Part shown: in pieces, positions 38,536 through 64,000 of the stretch | Layout of the letters: each line of letters begins with the position of its first letter | Position numbering within the stretch: position 1 is the first letter of the stretch | NCBI GenBank assembly: GCA_008632985.1 | Contig: QPGO01000089.1 | Span: 186,001-250,000 of the forward strand | Origin: Psammoneis japonica | Lineage: Eukaryota | Direction of reading: 5' to 3' | Length of the DNA: 64,000 nt | Translations under genes and position numbers: made by a program | The notes under the pieces: model-generated | Database searches by the model: none | Seen by the model: the letters and a program-made list of their open reading frames with translations, nothing else | Told to the model about the DNA's origin: nothing

Positions 38536-38894
38536 CGTGTATACACTGTGTATGTTTTGTTTCCTTTGTGACGAGTAGCGATGGATCGTCGATATTGTCT
38601 GCACTCCGACTACAGTAGTTGTTGGTTGGTTTGGAGGTCGGAGGCACACAGGCAATGCAACAGTATCGCATCATCAGGCCAATGCTGATTGAGGGATGCG
38701 CTGTGGGTCGCTCTGCGCTGCCGAAGCGTTTCGCGCGAACGCACGCAACGCACTAATAGAATCTTTTTTTGCCTCCGAAAAAGGCTCGCGTGTTGTCCGC
38801 AGACAGCCCGTCCTCTGCCTTCTTTTCGCATCCTTTCTTCCGTGCACCATAGAAAATGCTGCCACTGGAAGGTCTCAGCTGCTCACAAGCTAGC

Positions 38895-41800
38895 AAATGC
38901 TGCTGCAACCAACAAGAAGCAACAGGCTGGCGAGGAAAGAAAATGCCCAAAGTGTGAGAGATAAGCACCGGCGCTTGCCAGCACCTTCCTCAGAGACTGT
39001 GTGTTGCCTGGGGCACTTGGCAAGTCCGCGCACTTCCCAACAAATCTGTGGAGACATGCCAGAGCCTGCACAACCAAAGAAATTTGTGGCAGGATGATCC
39101 TGCACATTTTTGTGTGCAGGGCCAAGAGCCATTTGCTTTGAAAACTCAAAACAACCCCCCCAGCTTTTCAAAGGCACTTGAGAAAAACCCAGCCATTGTG
39201 TTTTCTTGCAGAAGTGCTGTGCTCCAAGAACACATTGAAACAACCCAGTGACAAGCTCACACCACTCAAGAAAGCCCCTCAGAATTGTTCCAACATCCAA
39301 AGAAAGGAACGGAAGAAACCTGAAATTCAGAGCACAGGAGGGGCAGCAACGTGCTGCTCGCCAAACGAGCAGCACCTTTTTTGCCCCAGCTCCAGAATCT
39401 CCACATGGTGCAAAGCATTTGGCAAAAGCAGTGACAAGCACAGATTTGTTCAAGGCAAATGCCAGAGTGCACTGCTGCACATTGCAGCAGACTGTTTTAC
39501 AGCGCAGCTTGCATGTGGAGAAAAAAGAGCAAGAGGGAAAGTGGACACACCTGCAACAAACTTGCAGAAGATGTGAAACATGAGGGTGGCTGATTGCACC
39601 TGTGCTTCTTTTTCTTGAGTTTGCAAGCTGGTGATTGCTCTGTTGTGCAAAAGATGAGCATGTCAGCAGCCCAAACAAGTCATCAAGTTGAGAGATCATT
39701 TTCAGGAAGAGTCAGCTCACTTTTTGCCTGCTTGTTGTGCAGAGGACCGTGACAATGCAATGGGCAAGACACAGCTCAGTCAAGCAACAAGTGCTTCAAT
39801 TTCAACACTGCTGACAGTGGGCTGGTGGTGCAGCAAGTCTGAGTTTGTGTGTGGGAGATGTCAAGGAGTGCCTGTTGTTTCATTTGCAGATTGCTGTCAG
39901 CTCCTCTCCTTTGCATTGATGCCACCATGATGGATGGGACCCATCTTGTGGCTTGTGCTGCAAGCAAGCCCTGGTGTTTCAGGGGTGGCAAACACACTTG
40001 GCAGTGTCAGAAAGAGCCCTTCTGCATCTGTGGCAGCAGACTGTTCCATGCTCAAGCATGGAATTGCAGGTCTGAGCATCTCACAGGATGAAATTGATCC
40101 ATTTGGTGGGAAACCTGAGCTTGAGGTGGAGCAACTCCAACACAGCAACTGCTGGCAGCAGAACAACTTGGCTCAAGTCCTGAACTTTTGGCAGAGCAGC
40201 AGTCAGCAACTGCCCTGTGGCAGCAATGGAGAAGGTGGCTGAAGCATGCATTTCTTGGCACAAAACACCAACATCAGGAGCCAGTGAGATGCTGGGCTTG
40301 TTTGAATTCTGCCAAGATTTTGCAGCTCAGTTGGGATGTTTTTTGCATTTTTCTTGCCAGAATCAAGCAACTGCAATGTCATCATTCTTGGTGAAGGAAT
40401 GTGAAAATCATTGCATTGTTGACTTTTGCCAACTTTTGTGTTCATTTCAAAGCCATGTCTGGGTGTTTCAACATGGCCCCCCTGATGTCAGTGTGTGCAA
40501 TTTGTGCACACCATGATGCATTGAATGCTCAAAACTTTCATTCACAACCACAGCATTTCCTTCCCCACAGGAGCTGGAAACTTTTCTGTTGCTTCTTGTG
40601 CTGCCAGCCCTCCTCCATGCCTTGTGAGAGCCCTTGAGTGGAAAGTGCAGAACCAATTGTGCCCTGGCTGGCAAGTCCGCATGAACAGGAGCACAAGTGG
40701 CTGCCTTGGGGCAAATGCAGGAAGCTGGCAATGGAGCAATGCTGTGGCAGTGCATGCATGGTTGTCAGTGCAAATGGGCAGCACATCATGTTGAAAGGCC
40801 ATGCAGAGTCATGTTGGCATGTGGGTGCAAACCCGCTGGTGGAATCCACAATTTTCCATCAAACAATGCCAGGCTCCATTGCTGCATCAGAGGATGACAA
40901 TCTGTCATTTTTTAGCTTCAGGCTTGATCCACAAATGATGCTGGACCCCCTTGGACTGCCACAAAGGCTGTCATTGCTGGCACATCAGGTTTGCTGATGC
41001 ACTCACACCCACACTGCCAGCCAAAGCTCTCAATTCTTTGACAAGACTCATTCCTCCAGAAATGGTTGCCAAGTGGCCTTGTTGCTGCAAACGCTGACTT
41101 GGAGCACCTCAGCAACTGAGGACAATGGGTGGCAGGCAGTTGAATCATGAGAGTGTCCTGTGTGCTGCAGTCCATGGTGAGCAAGACAGCATGGTTGAAT
41201 CAGGCAAAGAGAAGGGCCATTGGTTGCAGAGGCCATCACCTCACCACAGCATGACAGCAATGCCCACCACATGTCACCACAGGATGATGCTCCTCAATCC
41301 TCAACTCAGACAGCCAACACTGAGAATTTTGCTGGCGTGCATTAAAATCAAGTGGTGTTGGAGTGGAGAATTGGTGGAGCTCTGCACTCTTCCCACAGCA
41401 GCAGGAGAGGCTCCAAAGAAATGTGGCAGCTTCTCCATGTTGTCATTGCAGCCACACTTTCCAGCCAGCACCATTGCCGCCAGGCTTGCACTCCTGGATG
41501 AGTGGGGCACTTTGTTCAGTCTGTGCACCAGTGTGGGGTTGGAGCTGGGTCTTGCACACATTTCTTGAAATGGACATGGGGCAAGGCAACACATGCTGTG
41601 CAAAAACGCAAGAGCTTGGTTTTGGCTCTTCTTGCAGTGGCTCAGCTCAGATTCTTTTTGCTTTCTTGCCCTTTTTCCTCTTGGAAAATTTCAGCTGTTG
41701 TTCTGCAATTGTGCCAAAAATGACTGTCTCAAGATTGCAGCAGTGTGAAAAAAGCCCATTGTGGCAGTTGTCCAGGCAAACAACCTGGAGCAGATTCAGG

Positions 41801-44800
41801 TGACATCAGCAGACAGTGCTGTCACATCTGTCAACTCACCCACCATGTTGAAGATCAAGGATGCACACATGTCCTCACATCTGCAGTGTGGCTGCCAAAG
41901 CCATGGCAAATGCTCCCCACTGGAGACTGGAGCAGTTTCAATGGACATTGCCAAGCTTTTCTGTGATGCACAAAAGCAAGTGATTGCACCTCTGGCTGAG
42001 TTCATTGCACCAATCATTTGAGCTGATAATTGAGGCAGCTGCCCAGGTGGTTGCTGCAGAGAGGGTGTGCAGCAAGAACCCTCCACAGGGAGAGCAGCGC
42101 TGACACCTGCAATCTGATGGGTGATGACAGAGTTGCTCATGCCAGTCAAATCACAAGCAAGCTGGGCAATGAGATTCTTTCTGCACTGACATTGGCAAAT
42201 TCAGTTGACAAGCACTTGACAACACCATTGACCATGGGTGCCGCAGCTGCAGCTGAAGCTCTCCAAGCACCAAAACCCAAACTCGCTGTGCCTCTTGGTT
42301 TTTGAGGATCAACACCAAAGCCTCCTGCATTGCTCAAAAGATTGGGGCCAACCACAAGGCCACAGTGGTGCTGGTTGGCGGGAGGCAGGCACAGCTAGAA
42401 AAGCAGAAAAGCACAAGCTGAGGTGGCAGCCTGGCTGCTGAAATCTTCTGTGCCAAGGGATCCAAAAAGGGCTGCAATCTCACAGAGTTTTCTGGGGTTG
42501 CAATTTTCTCAAAACCATGAAGCAACCCATGCTGACAAATGAAATGTCATCACAAGTGTCATCCCAAGCATGTGCTGAGAACAAATCCATGGGTGTGAGC
42601 CCACATTTCCAGATTGGCAGCAAGCTTTTGTCACTCAGGGGGTGGAGCTGTGGATGTTTCCTTGTCACTTGCCTCAAGAATGGTTCAGCCAGGCTGATCT
42701 GAGGCAGCTGTCATGGCTTCAGCACAGTCATGGCTGCTGTGCCTTTGAAGTGAGAGCCCCTCCCAAAGTGTGGTTGACCACTGCATCTCTCCACCACATC
42801 TGCCATCTTCCACAAAGCCTTCAGAACCCACAAATTTTGTGGCAAGCATTTCACTTTGTTGTGTCCTGGAGCCACCTGTTCCTGGACGCATTGCTCTTGG
42901 CTTTTGTGGAAGCAAGAAACAAGTGCACGTGCATCATTGACCATGGCCAAGTGATGTGCCCGACCCACCATTGCCATGTGCATGCACGCACGCACATGCA
43001 CATCTGTCTTCAGAGGACCATCTGGGCTGGCTGCATGTCTTCAGGGGGGACAGATGGGTTGGATGGGACAAATGAAACTTGCATCTGATCAGACCACTGA
43101 GTGGTCAATGAAATGCTCTCTTCAAGATTGAAAGTCAATTGGGTGTGGACATTGTGAAAGAATCCAAAAACAAGGCTGAGTCTGAAATTCTTTTTTGACA
43201 TGGGACTTTGTTCATGATCACCGCAGTCACTCAAAGAGGCCTGGGTTGATGCTGGCATTTGACAAATTGTGATGTGACAACAAGGTCAGGTTGGTCAATG
43301 AGCATTTCTTGTGACAACAGGAAGAATGGGTGACAACAGGGGTCAAATGATGATGTTCTCCTGACAAATCATGGTTGCTGCTTGACATTGCAAACAGAGT
43401 TCTGGAGAGCAGTTGACATTGGATGAAGGCAAGAACTCAAATTTGCAGTTGTGGTGCCTGTCAAAAGGGGCTTGGTTCAAAATGAGGAGTTTGTTTTGAG
43501 AGGACAGTCTCTCCATTGTGTCAGACAAGTGACAAGGACACCGGCACGCCACTGTTGTCATGCAAGCAGCAGATCAGCAGCTGGGCTGTGTGGCACCCAA
43601 TGCAACAAGGAGACAAATTCAGCAGAAAGACCAAAAATTGCAACTGGCAATTGATCCAAAGCTCTTCCAAACAAATGAGTCAGCTCCAAACAAGATGCTA
43701 AGCCACAAAACAAAACATTGCAGATCTGCAACAGCCCAATTTTGTGGCTGAAAATGTGTCAGTGTCAAAATGATGATTGGAGCCCAAATGACAGTGACCA
43801 CCTTGCAGCTGGTTTTCAAAAATTGTGACACAGGAAGCTCATTTCTTGTCAATGGATCCTTTTGTCAAACACCAAAATGGGTTGCTGACAACTCCTCTGC
43901 AGAGCAGAAAACAAAGCAGTGTGTCTGCCCCACTCACAAAAAAAGGTGGAAAACATTGCAGCTGCATCTTGCAAGCACCAGCATGACAACAGAGGCCAGC
44001 AACAAGCACAACAGAAAATGCAAGAACCCCCACATGCCAGGGAGTTCTCTGAGCATCTTGTTGCAGGCTGCTCCCAAAGAAACAAGTTCAGCCAAGACCA
44101 GCTCAATTGATGTTCCAAGTTTTTCAGCACTGTCACCTGTTGGGCAGCAAAAAATGCTGATTGATTTGCTCTGGCAAGCAGAGCATGCTTTTGCACTTGT
44201 CATTGCTGTCAAGTCCAACAAACACAGCATGGAGCTCCTTGCAATGAACACAGAGCTCAGATGGCAGCAAGGAGTGACAGTCAAGAGAAGTCTTTCTCCT
44301 GTGCTGTTTTGAGTTTTTCTCTTGGGCAGCCTTGCTGCGAGCAACATTGGAGGCAACATCAACTGAAAAGACAGTGTGCATGAACAGAGCAGCAGAGGGG
44401 AAGGAAGTGCAAGGACAGCCCCGAGGACATGCAGAACAATTTTGAGGAAGAAGAGAGTGCAGCAGGGAATGAGAGTGATGACACAAGGTTGAGCATTGCT
44501 TGCCAAAAAGTGGAGAGGTGCTGGGTGCAGCAGTGCACAGTGGTGCACACCAAAATCACTCACAGAAGCACACATGGTTGCTCTGGATGCAAGTGGAGTC
44601 AAAGAAGCACCAACACATCCCAAATGTTCTTCTGGAAGCTGTGGAGTGGATGTTTGAAGGCCACACTCCACAATGGGTGGAGCAGATTCTTTGTTCTGGT
44701 GGCCAGGTTTGCCCTGGGGACAACAAGAAAAGGTGTCACCTTTGAATGCAAGGCAAAGCTCTTCATCATCAAAACAAAAAAAGAACCAACCTGACACTTT

Positions 44801-46990
44801 GATGAGAAGATGTGGCAACTTTTCCTCTCCAGAGCAGTGGCATCAACGTTCTGTGCTTGTTTTGCACAGGAGGTTGCAGAGACAGCGGGCTGCTTTTGAC
44901 AAGGTGATGCTGTGGCACCACGAGCAGCACTTCTTTGAGTCTTGCTGCAAGCTTCACAGCAACATGACCATCAAACACACAAAAATGACAATGTCCAGCA
45001 AGCTTTTGCATTTCACCCCAGTTGGTGGGAGGCTGAGCAGTTCTGACATGGGCTCGAATTGTCAAATGTTGCCATTGAGGAACAGCTGCGTGTGCCCTTT
45101 TGTCCCCCCCATTCTCACAGCAGCGGGCAGATGCCCCTCACTCTCACCATCCTCGTCATTGACAAATGCAAGAAATCCCACCTGCTTCTCCCTTCTCTGT
45201 GAATGCATTCCTTGTGTGGCACATTTGCCATTGCCTTGTTGGTCCATTGTCTCTTTCAATGGTGATGCAAAATGTGATGCATGACATGTGAGATGGATGT
45301 GTGCAGTGGATGCTGAACCTGACAAGGCAAGATGGATGAGCCAAGCCAATTCAATCAAAATAAATTGCTTGTCATGTCATTCGTGCTGAAAGTGTTGGGC
45401 AAGTGCAATTGGCTTGCATTCGCATGGACTGGTCTCGTGGATGAAACAGTCAAGTCAACTGAAATGTTGTGCTCTCTTTGCTGGCAAATGTTTGCATGGT
45501 GCAAAAGATGCGCCAATGTTCTTCACGCAAGAGGTGGTGAATGTTGCATCATCTGGTGTTGATTGCAGTTGTCTTCTTGTTGATGTCATTGCACAAGTTT
45601 TCCCGCAACAGCCCAGTTGCAACAAGAACCTTTCATCAACAATTGGCAACAATGCCACCTGGAAGAAAGGTTGGCTCAAAAGACAAGAAGCCCAGAAAAA
45701 AGCAGCGCTCCTTGACTGAAGAACAAAAAGCTGAAAGGAAGAGAGGAAAATCTTGATGACGAAGGCACAAAAGGCCCGGGGGGCTTGTCAGGCCTTTTTT
45801 CTGGTCAACCAGCTTTTGCTGTCAATGCATCAAATGACAAGGGAGCAAATGGCTCACTTGGGCAAGAAGAAGAGAAACAGCCATCAGATGAGGAGGGAGA
45901 ATCCACTCCTGTGGCTGCCCTCATGGCTGCCCTCAACATGCCGCCTGCAATGGCAGAAGTTGATGGTGCATGGTGTTGATGATTGTGATGGCGAGGACAT
46001 TGACCAAGCCACTGAAGATGATGAAGAAGAAAATGATGAAAACTTTGATGACAACAGCAGGCAGGCAGGGTGATGCTGAATTGTCTCCAAGCAATTTGTG
46101 CTCTCATCTGCAGGCAGAGACAAGCAGAAACTTCACGGCACTGAATGAGAGATGGCTGTTGAAACCAGTGGATGACAAGGACTGGAGAATTCCAGTTGCC
46201 ATGGCAAAACATGTTTGTGAAAAACTTGGCATTCATTGTGGTGAACCATTGTGCTGCCTTGAGGTCCCAGCTTGGCTCCCAGGGTGCTAAAGTGTTGAGG
46301 ACAGCACGCCAACATGGGCAAGACAAATGCGAGAACTTCAATGAAAATGGATGTCCAACTGGTTGGTTGTGGTGACATGTGAAGAAGCGCGTGCCTTGTT
46401 TGATTGTGGTTTCACACTGGACAGTGTTGTTCCCACATGCAAGCTCCAATTTTGTCATGACAAGCTGCTTCCCAGGAGCCGTCGAGCAAAGAGGGCTGCA
46501 GAAACTTGAGCTTGCACTGGCTTTCAAGGGCAACCGAACCCTTTCACAGAGATTTCAGGTCATGGCACATCAAGTGGCACCCCCTTCCTTGGAGGCACCA
46601 CTCTCAGTCTTGCCGGGGAACCACCCCTTGGCTCTCTGAGGCCATCTCAAACCAAGGTTCAAGTGACAGTGGGTCCCGCCCCACGACTTGTGTTTTCTGG
46701 AACAAAATGCACACCAGACATGCTCAAGATCAGAGGCAGTCAATGAACCAAATCCTTGCTTGTTTCGAACGTGGAGAATGAATTGTGGAGGAATGTAAAC
46801 ACATGGGCAAGCATTCTTGGTGTCCCAGAATGATTTTGTTTGTGCTCCAGGAAGGATGGCGGCTCCTCGTTGTGGCAATGAATGAAGGAAAACATTCCGT
46901 GGCGTCTGGAACAAATGCACAGAACTTTGTCATGGTTCAACATTGTTGTTGCAAAACATGTCCATTGCCAGAGATGATCCACATGCCGCC
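38895..46990. other. TpA- and CpG-depleted block 6 (about 8 kb), decayed repeat/TE-like content
   Basis: Runs of hundreds of bases with no TA and no CG (e.g. 39900-40600); dense spurious ORFs ending almost only in TGA. Confidence 0.9.
45650..46290 (+). mobile_element. 5' fragment of a repeat/transposon-associated ORF
   Basis: MPPGRKVGSKDKKPRKK, an acidic tract, then MLNCLQAI..LQAETS...RWLLK...CEKLGIHCGEPLCCLEV..WLP, recalled as a diatom repeat-borne family (..EP.YY....WLP). Confidence 0.4.
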
Positions 46991-47044
46991 TCTAACTTCG
47001 CGGTTTTGGCTGTGGCCCGTTCCCGATTGGCGTCAAGGAAGCGA

Positions 47045-47270
47045 TCGACCCTTTAGCAGCACCCAGGGAAAACGAAACGGAGAGAAGCCTCTAGAGAGAG
47101 AGTAGAATCAACTTACATGCCGGTGGGTGGTGGGGCTAGTTCATGCAGTGTCATGCGGTCGACCCTGTAGTAGTATCTAGGGAAATCAAAACGAGGGAGA
47201 GAAGCCCAGTGGAGAGTAGAATAACATACACACCGGTGAATGGTGTGGCTAGTTCATGCAATGTCATGCT
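47045..47270. repeat. Two-copy tandem repeat, period about 114 bp
   Basis: TCGACCC...GGGAAA...GAGAGAAGCC...GAGAGTAGAAT...CCGGTG...GGCTAGTTCATGCA.TGTCATGC at 47045-47158 and 47159-47270. Confidence 0.85.
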
Positions 47271-47329
47271 AAATAGGTGTGTTTTTTATTTCAAAACATA
47301 CATTGTGTTCTCTATCCCAATCCTTTGTT

Positions 47330-50300
47330 TTACTGTTTGGCTTCGGGCATGGATCTCTGAACGCTGGTGATGCGATCTCCCAAACTCAGAGCAATGCCTT
47401 GTGTCTTGGAACGAATCCGTATGTACCCAGCCAACTTGCCGTCATTGTCGTCTTTCTTCTCGACCGAAACATTAACGAGGGCGTCTTCACCAAAGACACT
47501 ACAAAAATAACAAAAGCACGCTTGTGTTAGTTGACGAATCAAAGACTATGAAACTCGAGTTGTATCAGCAAATAGACATGATACACAAATGCGATAAAGG
47601 TACGCGTAAGGACTGATCCCACACGGGCCCGCTCTCGTGCTTGCAATACAGTGCTGAATGCGTCACAAGGCACCTTGTCGGTGCTGACAGTTTCGCGAGA
47701 AGTTTCTTTCTCCCAGTATTAACAGACACTGCTCATGAAAAGGCGTGCAACGCAGTATCCAACACGAAACCGGGAAATAATCGACAAACGCATCGAGAAC
47801 AAGCAATGTCTTACCTTCTTGCATAGAGGTTGGCGGCAAGGAAGCTTCCCGTTTCAGACGTGTCGTGCGGAGTGAGGCAACGCATGTTGGTCGATTCGAC
47901 AATGTGATTGAGAAAATCCAACAAGTTGGGAATAGAGGTTGAAATGGCCACCTTGTTTTCCCATTCAAACTCGGCCCACATGGATCGAAAGGCTTCGTCG
48001 GTACAAGTTGCGGGGCGAATGTAATCCATAATGTCCATGTGAATATCATTGAGATTGATGTATCCCTTCTCCCGAGTCGCCGTGTCTTCGTAGACAATGG
48101 TTCCAAAGATGTGCCCCGTCTCAGTGGAGGAGACCTTGATGGAGGCGCGGACGGTGATCTGATCGAGAGGGCCAATATTCTGAGACTGCGGGCGTTCGAC
48201 AATCTTCATGTCACCCATTGTGGCTAGCTCCACTGTCAAGTTGGCTAGTGTGTTGGGAGTACGATTGATGACCAGAATCTCCAAGACAATGTCATAATCA
48301 TGGACCGTGACAAAGGCCTCCGCATATACATTATCCGCAAACCCACTGAGTTGGTAGACATGATTCAGTTCGGAACTAAGCAAATCGTTGGCACCGGCAT
48401 ACCCAGTGGCACGTTCCAAATCGTCTCCGTCATCAAGGTCGACATCACCACCCTGAACAGCCATGGAACGCAACTGACGAAAGTGGATCAAGTCGTCAGG
48501 CTGTGCCGTGACGAGTTTGCCTGCATCGTCCTCGCCGTCGGCCGAAGCATCTTTGGTTTCTTTCTCCTTGAGCGTCTTGAGAAACTGGGCAAACGTTGCC
48601 TTGCCATCGTTCAGGAGAGTATCCTTGAGTAAAATACAAGCCTTGGGGTCCAATAGCGCACGGCAGCATAGTGTAATGCGTTCCGAACAATCAGCCACGG
48701 CGGGACGCTGAGCTGAAACACTAGCCTCGGCCATTTTGACTACACCGCACATGATAAGCAGCGTATCGGAAGTCATTTTCTTAATCGCCAATTGGTCCAT
48801 TTGAGGCAAGTCCGTAGCCCTCAAACACAACTTGGTGAGGCAGGAAGCTAGAATGGTTCCCAAGAAGACATCACCACCAATCACCATCTTGCGCAAATGA
48901 GGGGTATTATCCGACTCGTCTGGACGAACGGCTTCGGAGTAGACAGTCTGGGTTGCATAAGTACCATCGGCCAACACAACGTTCTTAGTGATCATTTTGG
49001 GAGCCTCTCCTTCTTCGTGCTTCTCTTCATGACTCTCTTCCTTGGCAATCAAGAATGGGGTAGGGCCTAACTGTTCCGATATGGTTTCAAAGGCCTCCAC
49101 AATAGTTTCCTCCGTATCCGAGTATTCACCCAAGATCCAAAGGCATACGCACATAACGTTGCTAGAGGAAATGTCCTCGACTGAACCCAACAACTTGGGC
49201 AAGATAGATCCTCGCAGTGCCGGGTACTGTTCAACAATAGCTCTGACAAAAATAGCAACCTGCATACCACCATCCGTGGCTAAAAAGTCCATGAGGGTAA
49301 AAACAACCGACTCGGCAACATTGGGGAATCGCACGGCGCATCCGTGAATGGCTCGAATCAGCATATTCCGGTAGGCCATGCCCTTTGCTTCCGCCATGGT
49401 GGAGTCCTGCTCCTGAGCAGTCTTGGCAACCTCGCGCTTGAGCGTCGATACCACATCAGCGACGTTACGAGGGGTCACAATGTCCATGGCCACATCGAGT
49501 ACCTTCTTGCAAATATCAGCACTCGGGGAGCTGAGCGCGCGAAGAATATCCATGAGCAACTCCTGCAAGATCTTGCAGTGACGAGTCTTGAGGTCTTCCA
49601 ACCGCTCAAGAACAATGAGCTTGACATTGTTGTCGTTCTTGCTATTCAACAAGTTTGTATACGTGACGGCGGCAGCCCGAATAGCAGTGGGAGCGGAAGA
49701 AAGCGACACTAGAGTCCAAGCTGCCTCGTAGGACACGGCAGCAGACGTGCTGGAAAGCATCTGAAACAAGACGCGGACAAATCGTGACTTTTGGGTAGGG
49801 TCACGACGACAGACCTTACGAGTAAGTTCCAGAACGAGCAAGGCGAATCCATCTCCATACTTGCCCACGTCATCCATGTTTTGGGCCAAGAACTGAATGG
49901 CCAAATCCTCCGACTGATTGAAAAGCATGAGAAAGGCGTTTCTCCTGGCAGCCACATCTGTTTCGGCTTGGAGGAATTCGTACATAAGCTCTGGTCCATC
50001 GGGAATCAAGTGCTCTCCAAACAGCTTGTGAGCGTGAAATACGGCAAGCGCCGCGTTCTTACGGACGTATTGATGGCGGTGTTCGAGACACGCCTTGATG
50101 GATGGGATGAGCGGACCGAGAATCTCCTCATCCTTCACCTTGCAAAGAAAGCGAAGCATACTGCCTCGTACGTATTCATTCGGATGATTTAAATCATTCA
50201 TAAGTGCATTACACACCAAGAGCATTTCTGGAAGCATCTTACGCTGAACCGGGGGACCTCCTGCAGCAGCCGCCAGCACTTGATCGGATGTTGGTTCTTG

Positions 50301-50686
50301 GTACTTGGGCACAACCTCCCAGTAAAGCATGCACACTTTTTCAATTGCTTATCCTGAGAATTGATACAGAACCGAATCACCTGCATAAGGACTCGAGGCA
50401 TAGGCTCTCCACCGAGCATTGCCATGATTGCAGCTTTGAGAGCGTGCTTCTTGACCTACGAGGAAAACGGCATGTTTCACAGCAGACACACGAGTTGAGA
50501 CTCTGCGTACAATTCACGTAGAAACTGGTACTAAAGATACACGCTGGATACCACCGCACTCACATTGTCGTCATGACTCTCCAAATCCTTCATGATTTCA
50601 TCTTCCGACGGCAATCCACCGGCTGTCACATCAGATGCCAACGTAAAGGTACAATACGATTCATTGCTATTGGTTGGGGCCGGCAT
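47330..50686 (-). CDS. COPB1: Coatomer subunit beta (exons 50686-50564, 50455-47815, 47498-47330) with one apparent 1-bp frameshift near 50338
   Basis: DLNHPNEYVRGSMLRFLCK, LEHRHQYVRKNA, VLADGTYATQ, QLSGFADNVYAEA, FRSMWAEFEWENKV, ARSVFGEDAL, RIRSKTQGIALSLGD. Confidence 0.95.
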
Positions 50687-51774: not shown

Positions 51775-52124
51775 AAGAAATGAGGCAAGTGGATTTGTTT
51801 ACTTCTGAAGTTTAGGATGGAGCTAAACTAGTATTGCTGAACTGGTGACGGACGAGTTTGATTGTCGTGTTTATGTATCAGGAAGACTTTTTAATTATCG
51901 AGATATTGCGCTTAACCAATATTTCCTTTTTTAGTTGGAGTCTTTGTCACGAACGTTTTATGTGTGAGACTGACCTATACATCATTCATGATTCAACCTT
52001 GCAACACATGAGTTCCAAGAGATGCCGCTACTAGAGGGCCCTCTAGAGAGAGTTTAGGCAACCAGCATATACAGTAACCGTGTTTTCAGCACATGCAGGA
52101 CCGTTGAAAGAGCACACCTGGAGC

Positions 52125-52524
52125 TGTCTCATGCTGGTGAAATATCTGCTACTTTTTAACGATCTAGCGAAAACAAGTAGCGTGAACAGGAAGCAGCGAC
52201 TATGCGGTATCTCAGTTTCTTTGTCAACTCCAAGCTTCTGATCCCAACTTCTCTCGGCAAACATGACTATCTGCCAGATGACCCGGTGCAGCTGGCGACT
52301 TCATAACGTGCGGCAGTTCGTAAATCGCTCCAACAACAATTTGCATTGCTTTGCTATTGAGAAACGCTGGCGCTTCAGAACCATGTTGGTGCTCGTTTGC
52401 TTAGCTGCAGTCAAGCCGAATCATAAACGGACGCATTAGGCCCACATAGTCGAGCGAGATACGCCACAATTAAAGACCCTTGCGAGGGGCATAGGGACTG
52501 CGCCCATTACTCAATGCAAATTCA
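52125..52524. repeat. Diverged duplicated segment A (partner 57028-57349)
   Basis: Shared TGTCTCATGCTGGTG.AATATCTGCT, CATGACTATCTGCCAGATGA, TTCATAACGTGCGGCAGTTC and GTCAAGCCGA. Confidence 0.8.
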
Positions 52525-52857
52525 AGCCATCAACGGTCCCAGCGCCATTCATGTTCCGAATGATGGTCCAAGGACATGACAACTACGAGCACACCGTAGC
52601 TGACACATTCCATGGGCAATTGCAACTACCAAATGATTGACAGGCTCCTTAGCTGCAAGCATCCAATGGTAGTTACTACCTCAAATCTTCGTCAGAGTTG
52701 AGTTGCGGGTGTTGCTCTGACAGAGAAATGCTGCACCTCGTTCTACGTTCGTTCCAATAAAAGGACTATCTCTCAAAGTAGATACAAAGAGAAATTATAC
52801 ACATTATAAATTATGAGCATACATACCTTGCTTACCTTACCTATTTCTTCACTTCCC

Positions 52858-53934
52858 TCACCAGTTGACAAGTTGTTCCATCGAGACAACCGTGATTCTT
52901 CCAAACATGGAATCGACTCGCTGTTCAACCGACTTGATAAGAAACTTTGTGCCTGGCCGAAACAATACTTCACATTCATGCTGATTCTTTTTGAGTGCCA
53001 TCGCTTTTATGTCCAAGCCCGTCTTGCTATCAATCTCGAAGAGAGTATTGCAGCCGCCTTCACCGGTGATGAAGCTTTTGCACTTTTCCTTCTTGCGAGA
53101 TGAACTCAAAAAGGCTGGGTCGGAAAAGGTGCCACCAGGCTTCAACGAATTGTATAAATCTTGCGATAGCTCCGTACCACGATACACAACACCATTGAAG
53201 GAGTTCAGCTTTGGACAGTGTTGGAGGGCGTGATCCACGTCGCTGGCTCGTGACTTCAACAATTCGGGATTCAACATCGTTTGTTGACCACGAAGGAACT
53301 TGTTAATCTCCGAGTACCCCGAGCCTGTGTAATCCTGGATCGCAAGCTTATCCGCTTTGTCTTGCCGACGCTTCTTCGTTGTATGCAGTCTCTTGATATC
53401 TTTGTAAACCTTCTTCATCAAGATGGCTCGTGACTCGACGCGTATCTTCTTTTCTCGTACGAAATCTTGAACGGCTCGGCACAACTGGATTCTTTCAGCA
53501 ATCTTGCAACGACATTCCAACAGAATCATGATCCATCTGAGAGGGAAAGTGGGACAGTATGGTACGATCTGCATAGAAGAGAACGAAGGAGAAACAGAAT
53601 CGGTGAGTCGTAAAGTTTGAGGAAAATTGCAAGAATCAGCGACGACCCTCTGAGCCACTACAAGAGAAGAACTCAAGCCAGGCGAGAGTGTAGTAGTCAG
53701 CGAATGTCTCATTCCGAATCCCATGGGGACCGTCATGATGGTGGGTAACTGAACAAACACCAAATGTTGCCCACCAGCGATCGATGCAAAAGGACGCTGC
53801 TGCCGAGTCACGAAAACCGCAGCAGCAAGCACAGTTCTTTGTTGTGGGTCATGAACTGCAATACCCATCACGCCAGAACGAAGCTGGGTGCAAAAGCGAG
53901 AGCGCATGTATCGAGTTGATAGCATAAAAAGCAT
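52858..53934 (-). CDS. VIP2/C3/ARTC-type mono-ADP-ribosyltransferase (R-S-ExE)
   Basis: AIQDYTGSGYSEINKFLRG, VVYRGT, PAFLSSSR, LFEI, HECEVLFRPGTKF; single intact ORF; true start codon uncertain. Confidence 0.88.
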   Translation of the reverse strand: MLFMLSTRYMRSRFCTQLRSGVMGIAVHDPQQRTVLAAAVFVTRQQRPFASIAGGQHLVFVQLPTIMTVPMGFGMRHSLTTTLSPGLSSSLVVAQRVVADSCNFPQTLRLTDSVSPSFSSMQIVPYCPTFPLRWIMILLECRCKIAERIQLCRAVQDFVREKKIRVESRAILMKKVYKDIKRLHTTKKRRQDKADKLAIQDYTGSGYSEINKFLRGQQTMLNPELLKSRASDVDHALQHCPKLNSFNGVVYRGTELSQDLYNSLKPGGTFSDPAFLSSSRKKEKCKSFITGEGGCNTLFEIDSKTGLDIKAMALKKNQHECEVLFRPGTKFLIKSVEQRVDSMFGRITVVSMEQLVNW

Positions 53935-55043
53935 AACTGCAATAGCAAGGGGTACAACCGTAACTCTACAACGAGCAAGAGGATTGTGAGAGCTTCAGCA
54001 GCAGAACTGATTTTGCCGATCTGCGCCGTGATGGCCTTTGGTCGGATTGCTTGTGGTACTGGTTCTACGTATTTCTACGCAGTGATTTTTGAAACTGTAG
54101 GTTTGCCCTCCATTTCCACGCTCGCCAAAAGTGGGTTGCTCGAGGTAGGTTCGATCAAAATTTTGTCGTGAAATGAGGTTCGTTTGAAAAAAGTTAATCG
54201 GAAACTGCTACTTGCGAATGTGTGGGTTTCGGGCGTCACCCAGACGTAGGAGCGAGGTGACCGCCTGATGGATGCTTGACGACACCATTCTACCGTATAT
54301 GGATTTGTAGCAAAAATAGACGAGTAGCTGTTGAGCTACATGGAGCCGTCCGATGTCTAGGCTCACTGAGCAGTCTAGCTTCTAAGAAAATGGCGGGGCT
54401 AGAGTAGAAGTAAAGTAACAACCCAGTACGATGACATTATAGTAAATACGAGACGTTTCCCCTATTCTCTGTTGTCATACTATGCTTCTTCTTCCACAGA
54501 CCTTTCAAGTTTCAAGCTGTTATTGGTCCAACCGTTTTGAAGCCTAAGTCATAATGAAGTATACTGTTGGCACCAAAGCTCGACACACCGCTGACCGTCA
54601 AGCCTCACCAAAACATCGTTCGATAGACTGACTCCTTGACCCATCGCATGAAAATAAATTCAAGAGAAGTACAGAAATCGCGATGAAGCATTTGAGATGA
54701 ATCATGATATTATAACCCCCACCACGCTAAACACTCGATGCAAGGCAAAGTGCGTATTCTCTAGATACCTACTTAGTCCAAAACCGAATCCAAGACTTAT
54801 ACCGGTAGTCCAATTCGAATCTGAGCCTTTACAAAGATTGAATAAAACAACAAACAGCCGACAAAAGCAAAAGAAGCAAAGAAGGGTTGATGGTGGCACA
54901 GGATGGCATTGGCTCGTGACTTTCGACTGTTTCCTTGGTGTTGATTATTGGTTCAAATTCAGGGTAAAGTGGCGGCTCCGTCGGTGCTGTCGGCTTTGGC
55001 AAGGATTCTTCTTCCTCTTCCACCAACGTGATGTTGCCATTTA

Positions 55044-55891
55044 GACACTCGTGAGGGCATTACACCTGCGCCCATTTCTCAAAGCAAAATTTCAGATACT
55101 TCCCTAGGTGGCAATGGCGATGTATGGGTTGTCTCGAAGCACAAAGAAGTACGGGCATCACGCCTTTATGTCGAGAGCAAGACCTGACTTATCCATGCTG
55201 CAGCCGTCGTTGCTGACATGACTTTCAGGCCTACCGTATGCTCACTCGTGCAAATGTATCTGCTCGCAAGGTTTGGACCAACTGTAGATCTATCAAATTC
55301 GAAAAAAGGTTCCTCCCCGCGTATTTCTCGTTTTCTCGTCACCACAACGGGTGCAACTCCTTAAAAATCCATCAACGAACACCCAAACCTATGAAAATCT
55401 CTGTCCGTAAGTTTGGCCCTAGAGTGTCCATCGGCCGAGTTCGAATCAACGTTGGCCCCGCGTATTTCTTGTTTGTCTCGCTACCGCAACGGGCTTCACC
55501 TCGAAAGAGTTCTCAATGCAACACCCAAACTGACGAACAAAACTTGATCGTCGGGGTGGAACTGAGGTCGGTGCTATGCATACGGAGCCAACGTCCAACA
55601 AGAGTCCACGAACACACTTAATTTCACAGAATCCCTAATATGCATAGAAGTACGACATCCCGTTCCTGTATCCGAATTCGAGCATCTTCTCATTGTTAGA
55701 AGAGCTTGTCAAACTCGCACACAAGTGCCTGACATACATCATGTCGTTCACGGGGCGACACATGACCATGGACCGTCCGTAGTCGGAACAGCAGCAGAGT
55801 TGCCCATCACAGGATGAATTTACGCCTCCACGGTTAATCTGCCATTCATTGTCGCTCATCATTGCAAACTAGAAGATGTCCATCTCGAACA
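55044..55891. repeat. Diverged duplicated segment B (partner 57350-58094)
   Basis: Shared TACTTCCCT.GGTGGCAA, GTCGAGAGCAAGACCTGA, TTTCAGGCCTACCGTAT, CCGTCCGTAGTCGGAACA and GAAGATGTCCATCTCGAACA. Confidence 0.8.
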
Positions 55892-57027
55892 TGGGGACTT
55901 TTGCCTGCCTTTGCGAGCATGCTCTTCCGGTAGAACCACGAGTCGCTACTGCAAATCGAGAAACGATGATTTCGTCCCAATAGGGACTATCCCCGTCCAG
56001 TAGCCTTCATTGGATAATGACGAACAGCTGGCATGCCCACTGCCTACACGCTCATGTGGTGCTGAGCCATAGTAGCCTGATTCCAATGAACAGTATTTGG
56101 AATTGCTTCACTGTATGGTAAAGCTTTATCAATGCGTGAAATCTGCAGATAGCTCCGCAAAATCTTGTCTACGCACGAGTGTCTGGTCGAAAGCAACAAT
56201 TCCACCATGTTCTCTATCACCTTCCTCACCAAAATACTTGGAATGAGTCGGCGTTGACAACGACGTGCTGCCCTATCCCGGCAGACGGATCGCTTATCAT
56301 TGCCTGCAGCAGTAGCAAGAGAAGATTCGAAGATGCTTCAGGCCAACCTTAGAGTCAATTTGCACTAGCCACTGGCGAAAGATATCTGCAAGACCCGTTT
56401 TCCATCCCTGAAAGTATGTAGATTTTGTGCCCACCCTGCAATGAAGAGTATCCTTCTGAATATTTCCAGTCGCGTCCCATTTCAGACTCACAGGGCCACA
56501 CAGCAGGTAGGAGGAGACCTGGAATATAAGCCTCATAGAACGAGGAGATCATTTACAGAAGCCGAGCCTTCGGGACACGCCCCACGCTTTGCCCATCGCC
56601 CCACGAGCCCTACTGTAGTTTCAACGTAGTCGTACTACCCCTTGTGCGTCCAGTCAAAACTTGTAGCTGCAATGTTCAGCACTCCGTTATTGTATGAGAA
56701 AAACAAATCAATTTCAGTCTTGAAGCAACATTATTGTCATTGCGTTCGAGGATTGCATGAACAGCACCTCAAAGAAGAGAATACAACGAGCAGACGATGC
56801 TTCTAAGCAATCTAGCCACTGGTGTAGCACTTGAGAAGCCTGGACAAGAGCGGAGGCAATTCCAAGAATAATCGCGAAAAATCAAGCTCACGAGTTCCTT
56901 GACAATCGGAAGACCAAGGGATACCGCTGGCAACAGCAGTAATCGTGCTTTCTGTACAAGAACGACCCTTGAAACAGCCCGTCTGCAGCAGGAACCATTC
57001 CCATTGAAATGCCCATGGGCATTTGTC

Positions 57028-58094
57028 TGTCTCATGCTGGTGGAATATCTGCTTCTTTGACGTCTAGCGACAACTCGTAGCGTCTCCAGGAAGCAACGCC
57101 TGTGCGGTATCTTTGTTATTTCTTCTGACCCAAGCTCCATTTATGAATGTCTCCGCAATCATGACTATCTGCCAGATGATCCGCTAAAGCTGCGATTTCA
57201 TAACGTGCGGCAGTTCTCAACTCTCTCCAATCACACTTGGCATTTATATGTTTTTGAGAGACGCTGGCGACTTCGGAACTATTACTAATTTGCGTAGCTG
57301 CCGTCAAGCCGATGCATGAGTGGACGCATCATACACAATCAAGCGAGATTCCAGCTACTTCCCTCGGTGGCAAAGGCCATGTGTGGCTTAGCTCAAAACA
57401 AAAAGGAGTACCTGCCATCAAACCTTTATGTCGAGAGCAAAAACACCAGTGAGATCGGCCCCACCACGGACCGGCCATCACCAAGGAGTGCGGGGCATCA
57501 AATCATTACGTCGAGAGCAAGACCTGATTTCTCCATGCAGTCGCCATTCCCCATGCATTGTGGGGAACGTTGTTGCTGGCATGGTTTCAGGCCTACCGTA
57601 TACCCACTCGTGCACATGTATCTGCCCGCAAGGTTTGGTCAAATTCGAATCATGCGGTTCCGCGCCGCGTATTTTCGTTTCTCGTCACCGCAACAGGTGC
57701 AACTCCCAAAAATCCATCAATGACACCCGAACCTACGAAAGTCTCTCTCCGCGGTCGCGTTCGAATCTACCGCCACAGGTTTCACATCCAAGAGTTCTCA
57801 ACAAGACACCACGAATAGACTTAATTTCACAGCATCTGTAAACTCGTATGCATATGAGTACGGTATCCTGTAAGCGAGTTCGACCCTGTTTAACATTGTA
57901 TGTAGGAGTTTCCCAAACTCGTACAAGTACCTGACATACATCGTGTATCGTTCACGGGGCCACACATGACCGGGTAACCGTCCGTAGTCGGAACAACAAC
58001 CGACTTGTGCATCACAGGCTGAATTAACGCCTCCATGGTTACTTCGTCATTTCCTATCATTCATCATTGCAAACTGAAGATGTCCATCTCGAAC
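57028..58094. repeat. Contiguous A'+B' copy of the duplicated unit
   Basis: Same motifs as segments A and B, joined at AAGCGAGAT|TCCAGCTACTTCCC (57349/57350). Confidence 0.8.
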
Positions 58095-58165
58095 AAGGTT
58101 CCTTTTCCTGCTCTTCAGGACTTCCTGTGCATACAAAGTTTTATTTCGTTTGTCCCACACATCAT

Positions 58166-60784: not shown

Positions 60785-63700
60785 GACAAGCGCAGAGCAC
60801 GGACTCACAGATGATGGAGGTAGTCCATGCGCATTCCCCACAGCTTTGTACACAGTGCCTGACGCCTTCCATTCTCAAGAAGTTTCAGTTGAACTGGCAT
60901 TGAGGCCCACGCATGTCTGTCCACATCACAACTTGCTTCAGGTCAATGTCGTTGCATTTGAATTGGCTTTTGCAATGTTGAACAATCTCAAGAAGAGACA
61001 TGCATTGTGGAAGACAGGATGCCTCTTCTTCTCTTTCGATGTTTTTTCACCAAAGAAGGGCCAGACATCACTTCTTGTCCACACTGTTGTGACCAGTGCT
61101 GTGATTGTCCTCAGAGAGCAAACAACAACAAAGATGCAGAGGCTGGTGTGAGCATCCACAGAACAACTGCCAGTGTTGGTCAGGTGTGCTTGATGCACTC
61201 TCCAACTCTGGGTGGGACCTTGCACTGCTGGGCTGTGCATTTCTGCATGGCTTTTGGACTTTTGCAGCATCATTTTGCAGCACAATTGTTGGGCTGTCCA
61301 TTCAACAACTTTTGACATTTTTTCTGTGGGAATCTGCTGAAAACAACCCATGTGATGCAAAACACTCAAATCAAAATCTGAGTGTTTGTGCATCACAAAG
61401 CTGTTCTTGGTTGGCTTCTCTCAGTTTGCTTGTGAAAAAGAGAGAACTTGATTGACAGTTGTCTGATGAGGCGAGCTCAGTTGCAAATGCATTGGTCTGA
61501 AATGTGCCCAGTTGGGTGACAGCAAAGCCCATTTTGCACAAGGACAAAACTCATTGTGGAAGATGGATGGAATGCGCTCCAGCCCTGTGGGTGAGACTTT
61601 GTGCGACATTTGCCCACAGAATTCTGTGCATGAGCTGCCTCTGCACTTTGCACTTTGGCCAATGAACACATTTGTTTTTGACATTTTTAAATGAACAACC
61701 ACCAAGTTTGTGGCAAATCTGTGCCTGCTGTGAGCACTTGAAGTTTTTGGCAAGCTGCCTGTCCTGGGCACCTGCACAGCTGTTGAAAGAGAGTGGATCA
61801 CCCAACAACTGCACTGCACTGTGATTCAAAATTTTGCCTGAATCATGCAGAAATGACAAAAAGAACATCAACGCCACAGTTCAGCAGTGTGAGGTCCCAC
61901 CAGTCAATGCTGAGTGGTGCTGCCAAACTTTTGTCTCAGGGGAGCTCAAAGAAGCTTTGCACATGCAACATGGCCACGAACCATCTGACTTGCACTGGCA
62001 CTGCAATTGACACAGACTCAAGTTCTCTCTTCAGCATGCTCCTCAGTGTGAGCAGAAGGGTGACCTTGTCAACTCCTGATGTGACAAGATCCACAACAAA
62101 CTCAATGATCTGCTGTCCTTCCTGACATGCAAAATGCCTGCTGTCATCAACCCTGGTCACATCTCAGGAAGCCCAAGCTCCACAAGGCAGTTCAGCAGGT
62201 TGCCAAGTGCAGCTGCAGACTCAAACAAAGTTGTGAAAGAGATTGTGAGGTGCATCATGGGTGTGGAGATGTTCTTCTCATTTGTTGCTGGTGGAGTGAG
62301 GTGTTGGCTGTGATGCTGCTGTGTTTTGTGGATGTCAGAGAGTGGCCAACACTTCAATGCTGAGCCTTGCTTGCCCAAAACTCCAGAGCAAACTCTGGCA
62401 TCAGGGAGATCACACAAGGAACAGGAGTCATTTGAAAATGTTTTGTCATTGACAACAAATTTGTTTTCACAACAAAAAATGCAAAACTCTTGTGTGAGAA
62501 AATGTGGTGCACAACATCACACTGGAGAGTGGTTGGAGCCAACAACTTTGTGGGAACTCAGCTGAAATGTTGTCTGATCAAAGGCACTTTGATTTGCACA
62601 CTGAAGAACAACACCTTTGATCAGATGACATCAATTGACTGCCCAAGAATTTGACCTTCAAACAAGGACAGATGGGCAGACTGACAGCGGTCATTTTTGC
62701 TCTCCTGCACAAATTTGGCACAATGACTCTGAGAGCCATGATGACTCCTGTTGAAACAGAGAACAAACAACAAACCTGCTGGAGAGAGGAGGAGAAGAGT
62801 CAAGGAAGGCACCAGCACCCACACTCTTCAGTTTGAAAAAGACATTTTGGCACAAAAACAACAACTCTCACAACAGCCAGAGCTGCTTTCCTCTGCTTGT
62901 GTGGCTCTTGCACCCCCCCCAGCCATGTTCCAGCCATGAGTGCCAAACAAAAAAGTGAAAAAACGGACATTTTGTTGAGCCGATGCAGATTTCGTGTGGC
63001 TCATTTGTGGGTGCTTGAGTGTGCTAAAAAGACCCACCACCTGAGTGTGCCCAAACAGGCAGCTGCTCTTCATTTCTCATTCTCATTGAGTTGAGAAAGC
63101 ACCCCCTTGACACAAGGGTCATTGATCTAGAGTTGGAGTTTGCATTTGTTGTTTGTCAGCATGGTCTGACAAAACCAGCTGAAAGTTCACGTCATGAAAA
63201 CATGAGCTTGCCAAGATTCCAGGGATCCACAAATCTGATTCACAAAGAGTGCAGACACCATGTGCATCATGAAGGAAGTGATGAAATGTGGTGTCTTGCA
63301 TGCCAAAATGGACCTTTTGCATTCACAAGATTTTGCGCTGCTTTTTGCACCACAGAAAGTTGACACAAAACAGACCAGCAATGCACAGAAACAACCTGGC
63401 AAGCCAACTTAGATGAGGCTGATTTAACGGCACTGTTTTTGTGTTGAGCACTTTAAGATCAGGGGGGCAAGGTGGCCTGAGAAGAGGGTGTGCAAATTTT
63501 GCAGTTGAAAGTTGCTGAAATCTCAACAAGTTCATGGTCATTGACATGATCAAAAAAGAAATGGAGCCAACAAACTCAACCAGCAAAACATGATGGCTCT
63601 GATGGCATCATTTGCATTGCCACAAGGTGGAAAAAAGCAGCTGCTGCTGTGTGTGGTCATGTTCATTGCCAAGTCAGCTTCACTTTTGGGGCTTGCTTTT

Positions 63701-64000
63701 TACTGAAAAAACAGCTCTGATGTGTTCCAGCTGTGCATGAACAAAAAAATGCAAAAAATGGACATTTTTTCATGCAGACATGGGTTTCACATTGTTGCTG
63801 ACTTGAGAACAAACTTGCAAACCCAAAACTTTGTCTCTTGCACTTGCAGTTGCATCAAAAGCATCCCAGCACAAAGAGCCATGGATCTGGAGCTGAAATT
63901 AACACTTGCCCTTGTGTGACTTGACAAGCCAATTAAAAACCCATGTTGCAAAAAGATTGGCTCACCAAGATTCTGCATTGCTTTGGATCTGGTTTTGTGC
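60785..64000. other. TpA- and CpG-depleted block 7 (runs off the window)
   Basis: TA and CG nearly absent; remaining TA mostly in TTA/TAA. Confidence 0.88.

What the first reader, a model, noticed from the sequence alone, without database searches (positions are those of the whole stretch)
47045..47270. Tandem repeat at a block edge records TA->CA/TG changes directly
The copy nearest the TA-free block reads TAGCAGCACCCAGGG where the outer copy reads TAGTAGTATCTAGGG, giving three TA/CA differences in 15 bp. Elsewhere the copies read ACATGCCGG and ACACACCGG, the two different products expected from an ancestral ACATACCGG. This is an internal control suggesting the direction of change and activity fading out across the border.
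Basis: partly seen in the sequence, partly recalled or inferred. Interest (0 to 1): 0.75.

Follow-up and report, generated by a model that had tools for sequence, protein, structure and literature searches.

The report
Ordinary tandem duplication beside TA-erased block
A 114-base sequence duplicated head to tail sits just outside the sharp edge of a diatom DNA block that has lost nearly all its TA and CG steps, but the two copies differ no more at TA sites than ordinary duplicates do, so they do not record that mutation process.

Summary
The tandem duplication is real: units at 47041-47154 and 47155-47272, 93 of 110 aligned bases identical.

The neighbouring 8-kb block is also real. It holds 9 TA and 62 CG where about 313 and 415 are expected.

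The repeat is not a usable internal control, for these reasons:
- Both units lie outside the block. The TA change point is at 46993 (support 46950-47054) and is sharp.
- The inner unit has background TA density and keeps all 5 of its CG.
- Transitions at TA columns are 4 of 18, against 8 of 92 elsewhere (p 0.11).
- Three unerased duplicate pairs in the window show the same pattern: 19 TA sites differ and 22 are kept, against 3 and 4 here (Fisher p 1.0).
- No third copy was found, so nothing can be polarised.

Direction is better shown by another pair, 11206-11304 against 18276-18376. There 11 TA or CG steps face CA/TG, with none in reverse.

This scan has already reported the same TA erasure on other DNA of this genome. 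The closest published case is one 2026 preprint on Bigelowiella natans.

The parts
47041..47154 (.). Tandem unit 1, the inner copy nearest the block
   Evidence: It has 5 TA and 5 CG in 114 bp, which is 44 TA per kb, the non-block background level.
47155..47272 (.). Tandem unit 2, the outer copy nearest the gene
   Evidence: It has 9 TA and 4 CG. It begins 58 nt downstream of the coatomer-beta stop codon.
38962..46993 (.). Intergenic block of about 8 kb in which TA and CG steps are nearly all replaced by CA/TG
   Evidence: Between 39000 and 46900 there are 9 TA and 62 CG, against about 313 and 415 expected. Pooled over the four blocks, observed/expected is TA 0.01, CG 0.14, CA 1.78 and TG 1.85. 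Pyrimidine-purine (YR) steps per kb equal those of non-block DNA, 238 against 241-244. None of 30 ORFs of 100 aa or more passes a Pfam threshold.
46300..46990 (.). Border zone with TA erased but CG only about half erased
   Evidence: 17 CG (25 per kb) and 1 TA (1.4 per kb), counted from the list. The block has 7.4 CG and 1.0 TA per kb; non-block DNA has 52.5 and 39.6.
46987..47046 (.). CpG-dense patch immediately outside the block edge, running into the first bases of unit 1
   Evidence: 8 CG in 60 bp (list). The combined TA+CG change point is 46987, support 46975-46993.
47330..47506 (-). Last exon and stop codon of the coatomer beta-subunit gene
   Evidence: The translation of 47333-47506 (minus strand) matches Pfam Coatomer_b_Cpla positions 87-128 of 128, E 1.2e-15. 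The stop codon is at 47332-47330.
47811..50336 (-). Main exon of the coatomer beta-subunit gene
   Evidence: Adaptin_N E 1e-73, Coatamer_beta_C E 5e-50, Coatomer_b_Cpla positions 2-86. The best named relatives are all diatoms, at most 81% identical.

Best explanation
The locus is the sharp right-hand edge of an 8-kb silent intergenic block. In that block almost every TA step and most CG steps have been turned into CA or TG.

The 114-bp tandem duplication sits just outside that edge. It lies in the non-coding DNA 58-290 nt downstream of the coatomer-beta stop codon.

The duplication is old. Its two copies have diverged by 15-18% through ordinary substitutions and small indels. The three TA/CA differences are the number that ordinary duplicates in this genome show, so the repeat neither records nor polarises the erasing process.

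Shown here: the repeat, the block, the position and sharpness of the edge, and the lack of any excess at TA sites.

Inferred: the erasure is a TpA-directed A:T-to-G:C mutation process together with CpG decay, both confined to silent chromatin that stops near the end of the gene's transcription unit.
For: Position of the edge:
- The TA change point is 46993 (support 46950-47054). For CG it is 46987, and for both together 46987 (support 46975-46993).
- Both units therefore lie outside the block.

State of the two units:
- TA per kb is 1.0 in the block, 39.6 in non-block DNA, 44 in unit 1 and 76 in unit 2.
- Four TA and three or four CG are shared by both units, and unit 1 keeps all 5 of its CG.

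No excess at TA sites:
- No enrichment of differences at TA columns (p 0.107), no significant asymmetry (p 0.31) and no unusual clustering (p 0.57).
- Three unerased duplicate pairs in the same window (881 aligned nt) have 19 TA sites differing by a transition and 22 kept. The directions are 9:10 overall and 1:5 in one pair. The repeat has 3 differing and 4 kept, Fisher p 1.0.

Other:
- The gene end is placed.
- No RNA family, tRNA or unusual fold is found in the units.
Against: - The three TA-to-CA differences lie among the four TA sites of unit 1 nearest the block (hand count, p 0.07).
- The four T/C differences are consecutive and on one strand. By my own post-hoc arithmetic, not a call, 14 of 2380 orderings give this.
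- At transition sites unit 1 carries G or C 9 times against 3 (p 0.073).
- One TG-against-CA site occurs among 11 conserved-or-discordant CA/TG steps. Such sites are 0 of 95 in the unerased controls but 9 of 31 in pairs inside blocks (p 0.10 for the repeat).
- The transition:transversion ratio of 12:5 to 15:5 is higher than in the controls, 91:74 (p 0.31 to 0.10).
- The control pairs are of unknown nature and may be under selection.
Confidence: 0.6

Rival explanations
1. The TpA-erasing process reached a few tens of bases past the block edge and hit the inner unit partially. It converted three TA to CA in one same-strand cluster and hit one further TA on opposite strands in the two units. On this reading the repeat is a before/after pair.
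For: - The three CA/TA differences are in the copy nearer the block, at its block-proximal end (p 0.07).
- Four consecutive same-strand T/C differences.
- A 9:3 excess of G/C in unit 1 at transition sites (p 0.073).
- One TG/CA discordant site, a type seen only in block pairs (9 of 31 against 0 of 95).
- TA erasure reaches further than CG erasure at this border: the zone 46300-46990 has 1 TA but 17 CG.
Against: - No test reaches significance.
- Unerased controls show the same share of discordant TA sites.
- The TA nearest the block in unit 1 (47054) and the TA at 46993 are intact.
- Only 3 of the 9 candidate A:T-to-G:C changes are at TpA.
- There is no outgroup.
- CA against TG along the saturated blocks shows no same-strand runs (z -0.5 in the 8-kb block).
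Confidence: 0.3
2. The duplication is an assembly or haplotype artefact. Two alleles, or a mis-joined read, were placed in tandem, so the differences are allelic rather than paralogous.
For: In the only sample that holds the stretch, one contig joins 47051 to 47168, skipping 116 bases or about one unit. Several other contigs leave the sequence at 47049-47156 and rejoin at 47304-47319.
Against: - Those joints rest on 22-28 matching letters in single contigs of a noisy, mixed contig set.
- Depth is present in all 30 bins of run X1.
- About 15% divergence with three indels over 114 bp is high for alleles.
- The sample may be the one the window was assembled from, so it is not independent evidence.
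Confidence: 0.05
3. The repeat is the terminal part of the element that forms the block, such as subterminal repeats of a transposon. It escaped erasure because it lies next to an expressed gene.
For: The repeat directly adjoins the block, and subterminal repeats are common in DNA transposons (recalled, not tested).
Against: - No direct or inverted similarity links the two ends of the block. Local alignment scores were 42 and 38, against shuffles with mean 38-39 and maximum 50-51.
- There is no further copy of the unit in the window in ordinary or purine/pyrimidine space.
- No transposon protein domain was found in the block.
Confidence: 0.05

Closest known systems
TpA-restricted hypermutation of integrated giant-virus and virophage DNA in Bigelowiella natans (Mettrop et al., bioRxiv 10.64898/2026.01.13.699255). 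I read the abstract, Results and Discussion.
   Same: The mutation is regional, runs from A:T to G:C, and turns TpA into TpG or CpA. Its long-term footprint is TpA depletion with CpA+TpG enrichment in clusters of windows. The affected DNA is silent or foreign. The authors propose an adenosine deaminase as the cause.
   Different: - Here the organism is a diatom.
- The erasure is near-complete: TA observed/expected is 0.01, against a Rho of 0.45 for their viral region.
- CG is erased as well (0.14). The preprint's main text never mentions CpG (0 occurrences).
- No viral or transposon domain could be found in the blocks of this window.
- The tandem repeat itself does not show the TpA restriction.
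Repeat-induced point mutation (RIP) of ascomycete fungi (RIPCAL paper PMC2621366, abstract read)
   Same: Blocks of non-genic DNA are saturated with transitions at one dinucleotide, and the edges of the blocks are sharp.
   Different: RIP makes C:G-to-T:A changes, mostly at CpA, and so creates TpA. Here TpA is destroyed. RIP needs duplicated DNA. Here the blocks show no duplicates within the window, and a three-copy repeat family at 52124-58111 is untouched. RIP is described as fungal-specific in that abstract.
CpG decay by deamination of 5-methylcytosine in methylated repeats. That diatoms methylate transposons is taken from the start of the abstract of PMC9998398 in the search listing. The chemistry is recalled.
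   Same: CG falls to 0.14 of expectation in the blocks, with a matching gain of TG and CA.
   Different: It cannot explain the loss of TA. Zones at 6000-11000 and 17700-19900 have lost TA with little or only partial loss of CG: TA 8.4 and 5.0 per kb, CG 47 and 33 per kb. The two losses can therefore be separated.
Simple tandem duplication in intergenic DNA, by replication slippage or unequal exchange (general knowledge, recalled)
   Same: Two head-to-tail copies without a spacer. There is no coding, RNA-family or structural signal. Divergence resembles that of other duplicates in the window.
   Different: Nothing distinguishes it except its place next to the block edge.

Membership tests
TpA-to-TpG/CpA regional hypermutation (B. 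natans type) | Changes fall only on TpA (tested on the tandem repeat) | tested here: not met
   Only 3-4 of 12 transitions touch a TA, and there are also 5 transversions. Enrichment at TA columns has p 0.107. The share of discordant TA sites equals that of the unerased controls.
TpA-to-TpG/CpA regional hypermutation (B. natans type) | Direction is A:T to G:C (tested on the tandem repeat) | tested here: inconclusive
   Unit 1 has G/C 9 times against 3 at transition sites (p 0.073). No outgroup copy was found.
TpA-to-TpG/CpA regional hypermutation (B. natans type) | Long-term footprint of TpA depletion with CpA+TpG enrichment in contiguous regions (tested on the block) | tested here: met
   TA observed/expected is 0.01, CA 1.78 and TG 1.85 in 13 kb of blocks, against 0.57, 1.19 and 1.20 outside. 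Total YR steps per kb are unchanged. In the pair 11206-11304 against 18276-18376, 4 TA steps face CA with none in reverse.
TpA-to-TpG/CpA regional hypermutation (B. natans type) | Confined to a delimited region | tested here: met
   TA change points have support intervals of about 60-110 bp at 4 of 6 borders and 360-415 bp at the other 2. The tandem repeat lies outside the region.
TpA-to-TpG/CpA regional hypermutation (B. natans type) | Target is integrated viral or other foreign DNA | tested here: inconclusive
   None of 72 ORFs of 100-110 aa or more in the depleted zones passes a Pfam threshold. The 302-aa ORF has no homologue at E 0.01.
TpA-to-TpG/CpA regional hypermutation (B. natans type) | New mutations arise at high rate in mutation-accumulation lines | not testable with these tools
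   Only one sample holds the stretch, and only as contigs.
Repeat-induced point mutation (RIP) | C:G-to-T:A transitions, mainly CpA to TpA, so TpA is gained | tested here: not met
   TpA is lost and CpA/TpG are gained.
Repeat-induced point mutation (RIP) | Acts on duplicated sequence | tested here: inconclusive
   Within the 64 kb, the blocks have no partner outside themselves in ordinary or purine/pyrimidine space. An unerased repeat family at 75-80% identity exists. The rest of the genome could not be searched.
CpG decay of methylated DNA | CG depleted with TG/CA gained | tested here: met
   CG observed/expected is 0.14 in blocks against 0.95 outside. In the pair at 11206 and 18276, 7 CG steps face TG/CA with none in reverse.
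CpG decay of methylated DNA | Cytosine methylation present on the block | not testable with these tools
   No methylation data are available.
Simple tandem duplication | Two or more head-to-tail copies without a spacer | tested here: met
   The units abut at 47154/47155, with spacing 113-114 and E 1e-19. No third unit was found.

The most novel reading that the evidence does not exclude
The four same-strand T-to-C differences at 47057-47064 could be one footprint of the TpA eraser reaching about 70 bp beyond the block edge, into the 3' flank of an essential gene. The TG-against-CA site at 47118-47119 could be an ancestral TA or CG hit on opposite strands in the two units. If so, this would be the one place in the window where unsaturated editing is visible. 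It would suggest that events come as short single-strand clusters, as expected of a deaminase working on exposed single-stranded DNA.
Probability: 0.25. Interest if true: 0.6.

Novelty: new variant of a known kind. Interest (0 to 1): 0.35.

Why it matters
The tandem repeat itself is ordinary. The novelty label applies only to the block whose edge it adjoins.

That block shows near-total conversion of both self-complementary pyrimidine-purine steps, TA and CG, into CA/TG. This happens in silent intergenic DNA of a diatom, and the limits are sharp and stop a few hundred bases from genes.

A TpA-directed A:T-to-G:C process has been reported only in one 2026 preprint, on an unrelated alga. My searches found no description in diatoms, and none of erasure coupled with CpG loss.

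For anyone studying the process, the practical results are:
- This repeat should not be used as the before/after pair.
- The pair 11206-11304 against 18276-18376 is a better one.
- The border at 46987-46993 is mapped to within about 100 bp. It has a CpG-dense patch on its outer side and a 700-bp inner zone where TA is gone but CG is only half gone. That makes it a defined place to test what stops the process.

Tried and rejected
- Third copy of the unit in the window. nhmmer with a two-unit profile gave only the two units; the next hits had E 0.13, 0.98 and 9.6. A purine/pyrimidine-space scan gave no other place above 47 of 60 matches, against 54 of 60 for the partner unit.
- Third unit to the left, inside the block: none found.
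- Look-alikes in other windows of this scan: 0 windows. No notes exist near this place.
- Metagenome contigs scanned with a 23-letter pattern from the most conserved part of the unit. The 3 loci share only the pattern itself and have 59-64% G+C, so they are chance hits. No further metagenome scan was allowed.
- Whole genome: none is held.
- Relatives as outgroup: the closest coatomer-beta proteins are at most 81% identical, too distant for intergenic alignment.
- Sequencing runs: 3 runs of one sample and one study, held as contigs, with no RNA holder listed. After laying them, no variant inside 47041-47272 appeared among the 40 rows shown (255 more were not shown). The joints are weak, with 22-28 matching letters. 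This tells nothing about expression or about alleles.
- Rfam at E up to 1, ARAGORN, and an RNA fold of the 3' flank (z +1.09): nothing.
- The bacterial-type promoter and terminator scan gave numbers at shuffle level and does not apply to a eukaryote.
- Terminal repeats joining the two ends of the block: none above shuffles.
- Same-strand runs of CA against TG along the blocks: none. The runs z is -0.5 in the 8-kb block, the same as in non-block DNA.
- Protein content of the blocks: nothing passes Pfam thresholds in 72 ORFs, and the 302-aa ORF has no homologue.

Full report
**The observation.** Reading 46500-47900 and aligning confirms a two-copy head-to-tail duplication.
- Unit 1 is 47041-47154 and unit 2 is 47155-47272. 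Of 110 aligned columns, 93 are identical. There are 12 transitions, 5 transversions and 3 small indels. blastn gives E 1e-19.
- TRF does not report the array.
- In the 15-mer there are four C/T differences. Three are CA against TA; one is ACC against ATC.

**The setting.** The window is eukaryotic and intron-poor.
- The ORF at 47811-50336 (minus strand) is coatomer beta. Its best named relatives are all diatoms, at most 81% identical.
- The last exon is 47333-47506 on the minus strand. It matches the end of Pfam Coatomer_b_Cpla, positions 87-128 of 128, E 1.2e-15. The stop codon is at 47332-47330.
- Unit 2 therefore begins 58 nt downstream of the stop, and unit 1 ends 289 nt downstream. Both are in 3' UTR or terminator DNA.
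- No Rfam family, tRNA or unusual fold is present.

**The block.** Window-wide TA is at 0.415 of expectation and CA/TG at 1.38.
- Four blocks are nearly free of both TA and CG: about 200-2300, 27550-28700, 38962-46993 and 60850 to the window end.
- Pooled over these blocks, TA is 0.01, CG 0.14, CA 1.78 and TG 1.85 of expectation. Outside them the values are 0.57, 0.95, 1.19 and 1.20.
- Between 39000 and 46900 there are 9 TA and 62 CG, where non-block density predicts about 313 and 415.
- Total pyrimidine-purine (YR) steps per kb are the same inside (238) and outside (241-244). This is what conversion of TA and CG into CA/TG by transitions predicts.
- No Pfam domain passes threshold in 72 ORFs from the depleted zones. 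The longest block ORF has no homologue. The origin of the blocks in this window is therefore unknown.

**Where the edge is.** A likelihood change-point analysis on the series of YR steps gives the following:
- TA: 46993, support 46950-47054.
- CG: 46987, support 46757-46999.
- Both together: 46987, support 46975-46993.

The edge is therefore sharp and lies about 48 bp to the left of unit 1. Four of the six borders in the window are similarly sharp for TA, with support of about 60-110 bp. The other two are broader, at 360-415 bp.

Immediately outside the edge is a CpG-dense patch with 8 CG in 60 bp (46987-47046). Inside it is a 700-bp zone with 1 TA but 17 CG (list).

Unit 1 has 44 TA per kb, which is the background level of 39.6, and all 5 of its CG. 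Unit 2 has 76 TA per kb. The density data show no fading across the units.

**Do the differences between units favour TA sites?** They do not do so significantly:
- Transitions at TA columns are 4 of 18, against 8 of 92 elsewhere (p 0.107).
- Twelve random transitions on unit 2 remove 3 or more TA in 17.6% of trials.
- The 3:1 direction has p 0.31.
- Four differences within 8 columns occur in 57% of random placements.

An empirical control comes from three duplicate pairs in unerased DNA of the same window: 55594-55912 with 57797-58115, 52124-52460 with 57027-57349, and 55140-55410 with 57479-57754. Together they give 881 aligned nt at 79-86% identity.
- They have 22 conserved TA sites and 19 that differ by a transition. 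The directions are 9:10 overall and 1:5 in one pair.
- The tandem repeat has 4 conserved and 3 differing, Fisher p 1.0.

**Results that lean the other way.**
- The three lost TA are among the four TA sites of unit 1 nearest the block (p 0.07).
- The four T/C differences are consecutive and on one strand. This is my own post-hoc arithmetic: 14 of 2380 orderings.
- Unit 1 has G/C at 9 of 12 transition sites (p 0.073).
- The TG-against-CA site is of a kind absent from the controls (0 of 95) and common in pairs inside blocks (9 of 31, p 1e-6). For the repeat it is 1 of 11 (p 0.10). That site could derive from an ancestral CG as well as from a TA.
- No same-strand runs of CA against TG are seen along the saturated blocks.

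**Polarity.** No third copy exists in the window in ordinary or purine/pyrimidine space. None was found in other scan windows or in metagenome contigs, where there were 3 chance hits.
- No genome is held.
- The only sequencing sample holding the stretch may be the source of the assembly, and it gave only noisy contigs.

**A better internal control in the same window.** The pair 11206-11304, in an island of normal TA density, against 18276-18376, in a depleted zone, has 4 TA and 7 CG in the first copy facing CA/TG in the second. There are none in reverse (two-sided p 0.001) and 16 transitions to 6 transversions.

Two pairs inside blocks, 63105-63221 with 63864-63975 and 27777-27905 with 27955-28078, show 37:5 and 17:5 transitions to transversions. 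They have 6 of 16 and 3 of 15 CA/TG discordant sites.

**Comparison with what is known.**
- The B. natans preprint reports mutation-accumulation evidence for TpA-only A:T-to-G:C hypermutation of two integrated viral regions. It also reports a genome-wide footprint of TpA-poor, CpA+TpG-rich clusters. It does not mention diatoms or CpG.
- RIP runs the opposite way (abstract of PMC2621366).
- Five literature searches found no description of TpA erasure in diatoms. The single 'TpA' hit in PMC4504042 is the word 'Tpase'.
- Earlier notes of this scan report the same erasure on other pieces of this genome. I used them as a lead to the preprint and checked the phenomenon independently in this window.

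**Verdict.** The repeat and the block are real. The repeat is an ordinary old duplication lying just outside a sharp block edge, and it does not serve as an internal control. The spill-over reading remains possible, at about 0.3.

Noticed in passing
11206-11304 and 18276-18376: This is a dispersed 100-bp repeat. The copy in a normal-TA island has 4 TA and 7 CG where the copy in a depleted zone has CA/TG, with none in reverse (p 0.001). Identity is 77.8% in bases and 92% in purine/pyrimidine space. It is a cleaner before/after pair than the tandem repeat.
   Followed up: partly
63105-63221 and 63864-63975: This duplicate inside a block is found only in purine/pyrimidine space. Identity is 62% in bases, with 37 transitions to 5 transversions and 6 of 16 CA/TG steps discordant. 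That is expected if both copies were hit independently on either strand.
   Followed up: partly
6000-11000 and 17700-19900: These zones have lost most TA (8.4 and 5.0 per kb, against 39.6) but keep much of their CG (47 and 33 per kb, against 52.5). TA loss and CG loss can therefore be separated. No Pfam domain was found there.
   Followed up: partly
46987-47046, 28976-29052, 38699-38749, 2398-2441: CpG-dense patches of 8 CG in 60 bp, 20 in 77, 11 in 51 and 9 in 44 lie just outside four of the six block borders (lists; sequences). They may be unmethylated islands that mark or stop the erased domains.
   Followed up: no
52124-52460, 55082-55912, 57027-58115: This is a repeat family of up to about 1.1 kb, with three partial copies at 75-80% identity and normal TA and CG content. 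No Pfam domain was found. Repetition alone does not bring erasure here.
   Followed up: partly
52858-53934 (minus strand): The ORF of 358 aa matches ADP-ribosyltransferase exoenzyme families: ADPrib_exo_Tox E 3.5e-12 and ART E 5.5e-7. This is unusual in a diatom gene island.
   Followed up: no
15501-16000: This is a very TA-rich stretch, with 62 TA and only 10 CG in 500 bp. It is the opposite extreme from the erased blocks. I did not look at it further.
   Followed up: no
47300-48500: In the only sample holding the stretch, summed contig depth over the coatomer-beta coding part is about 10-20 times that over the block (about 600-1200 against 63), with many contigs 85-95% alike. The sample holds several related versions of this gene, or related organisms.
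   Followed up: no
5173 and 5789: There are two single N letters in the window.
   Followed up: no
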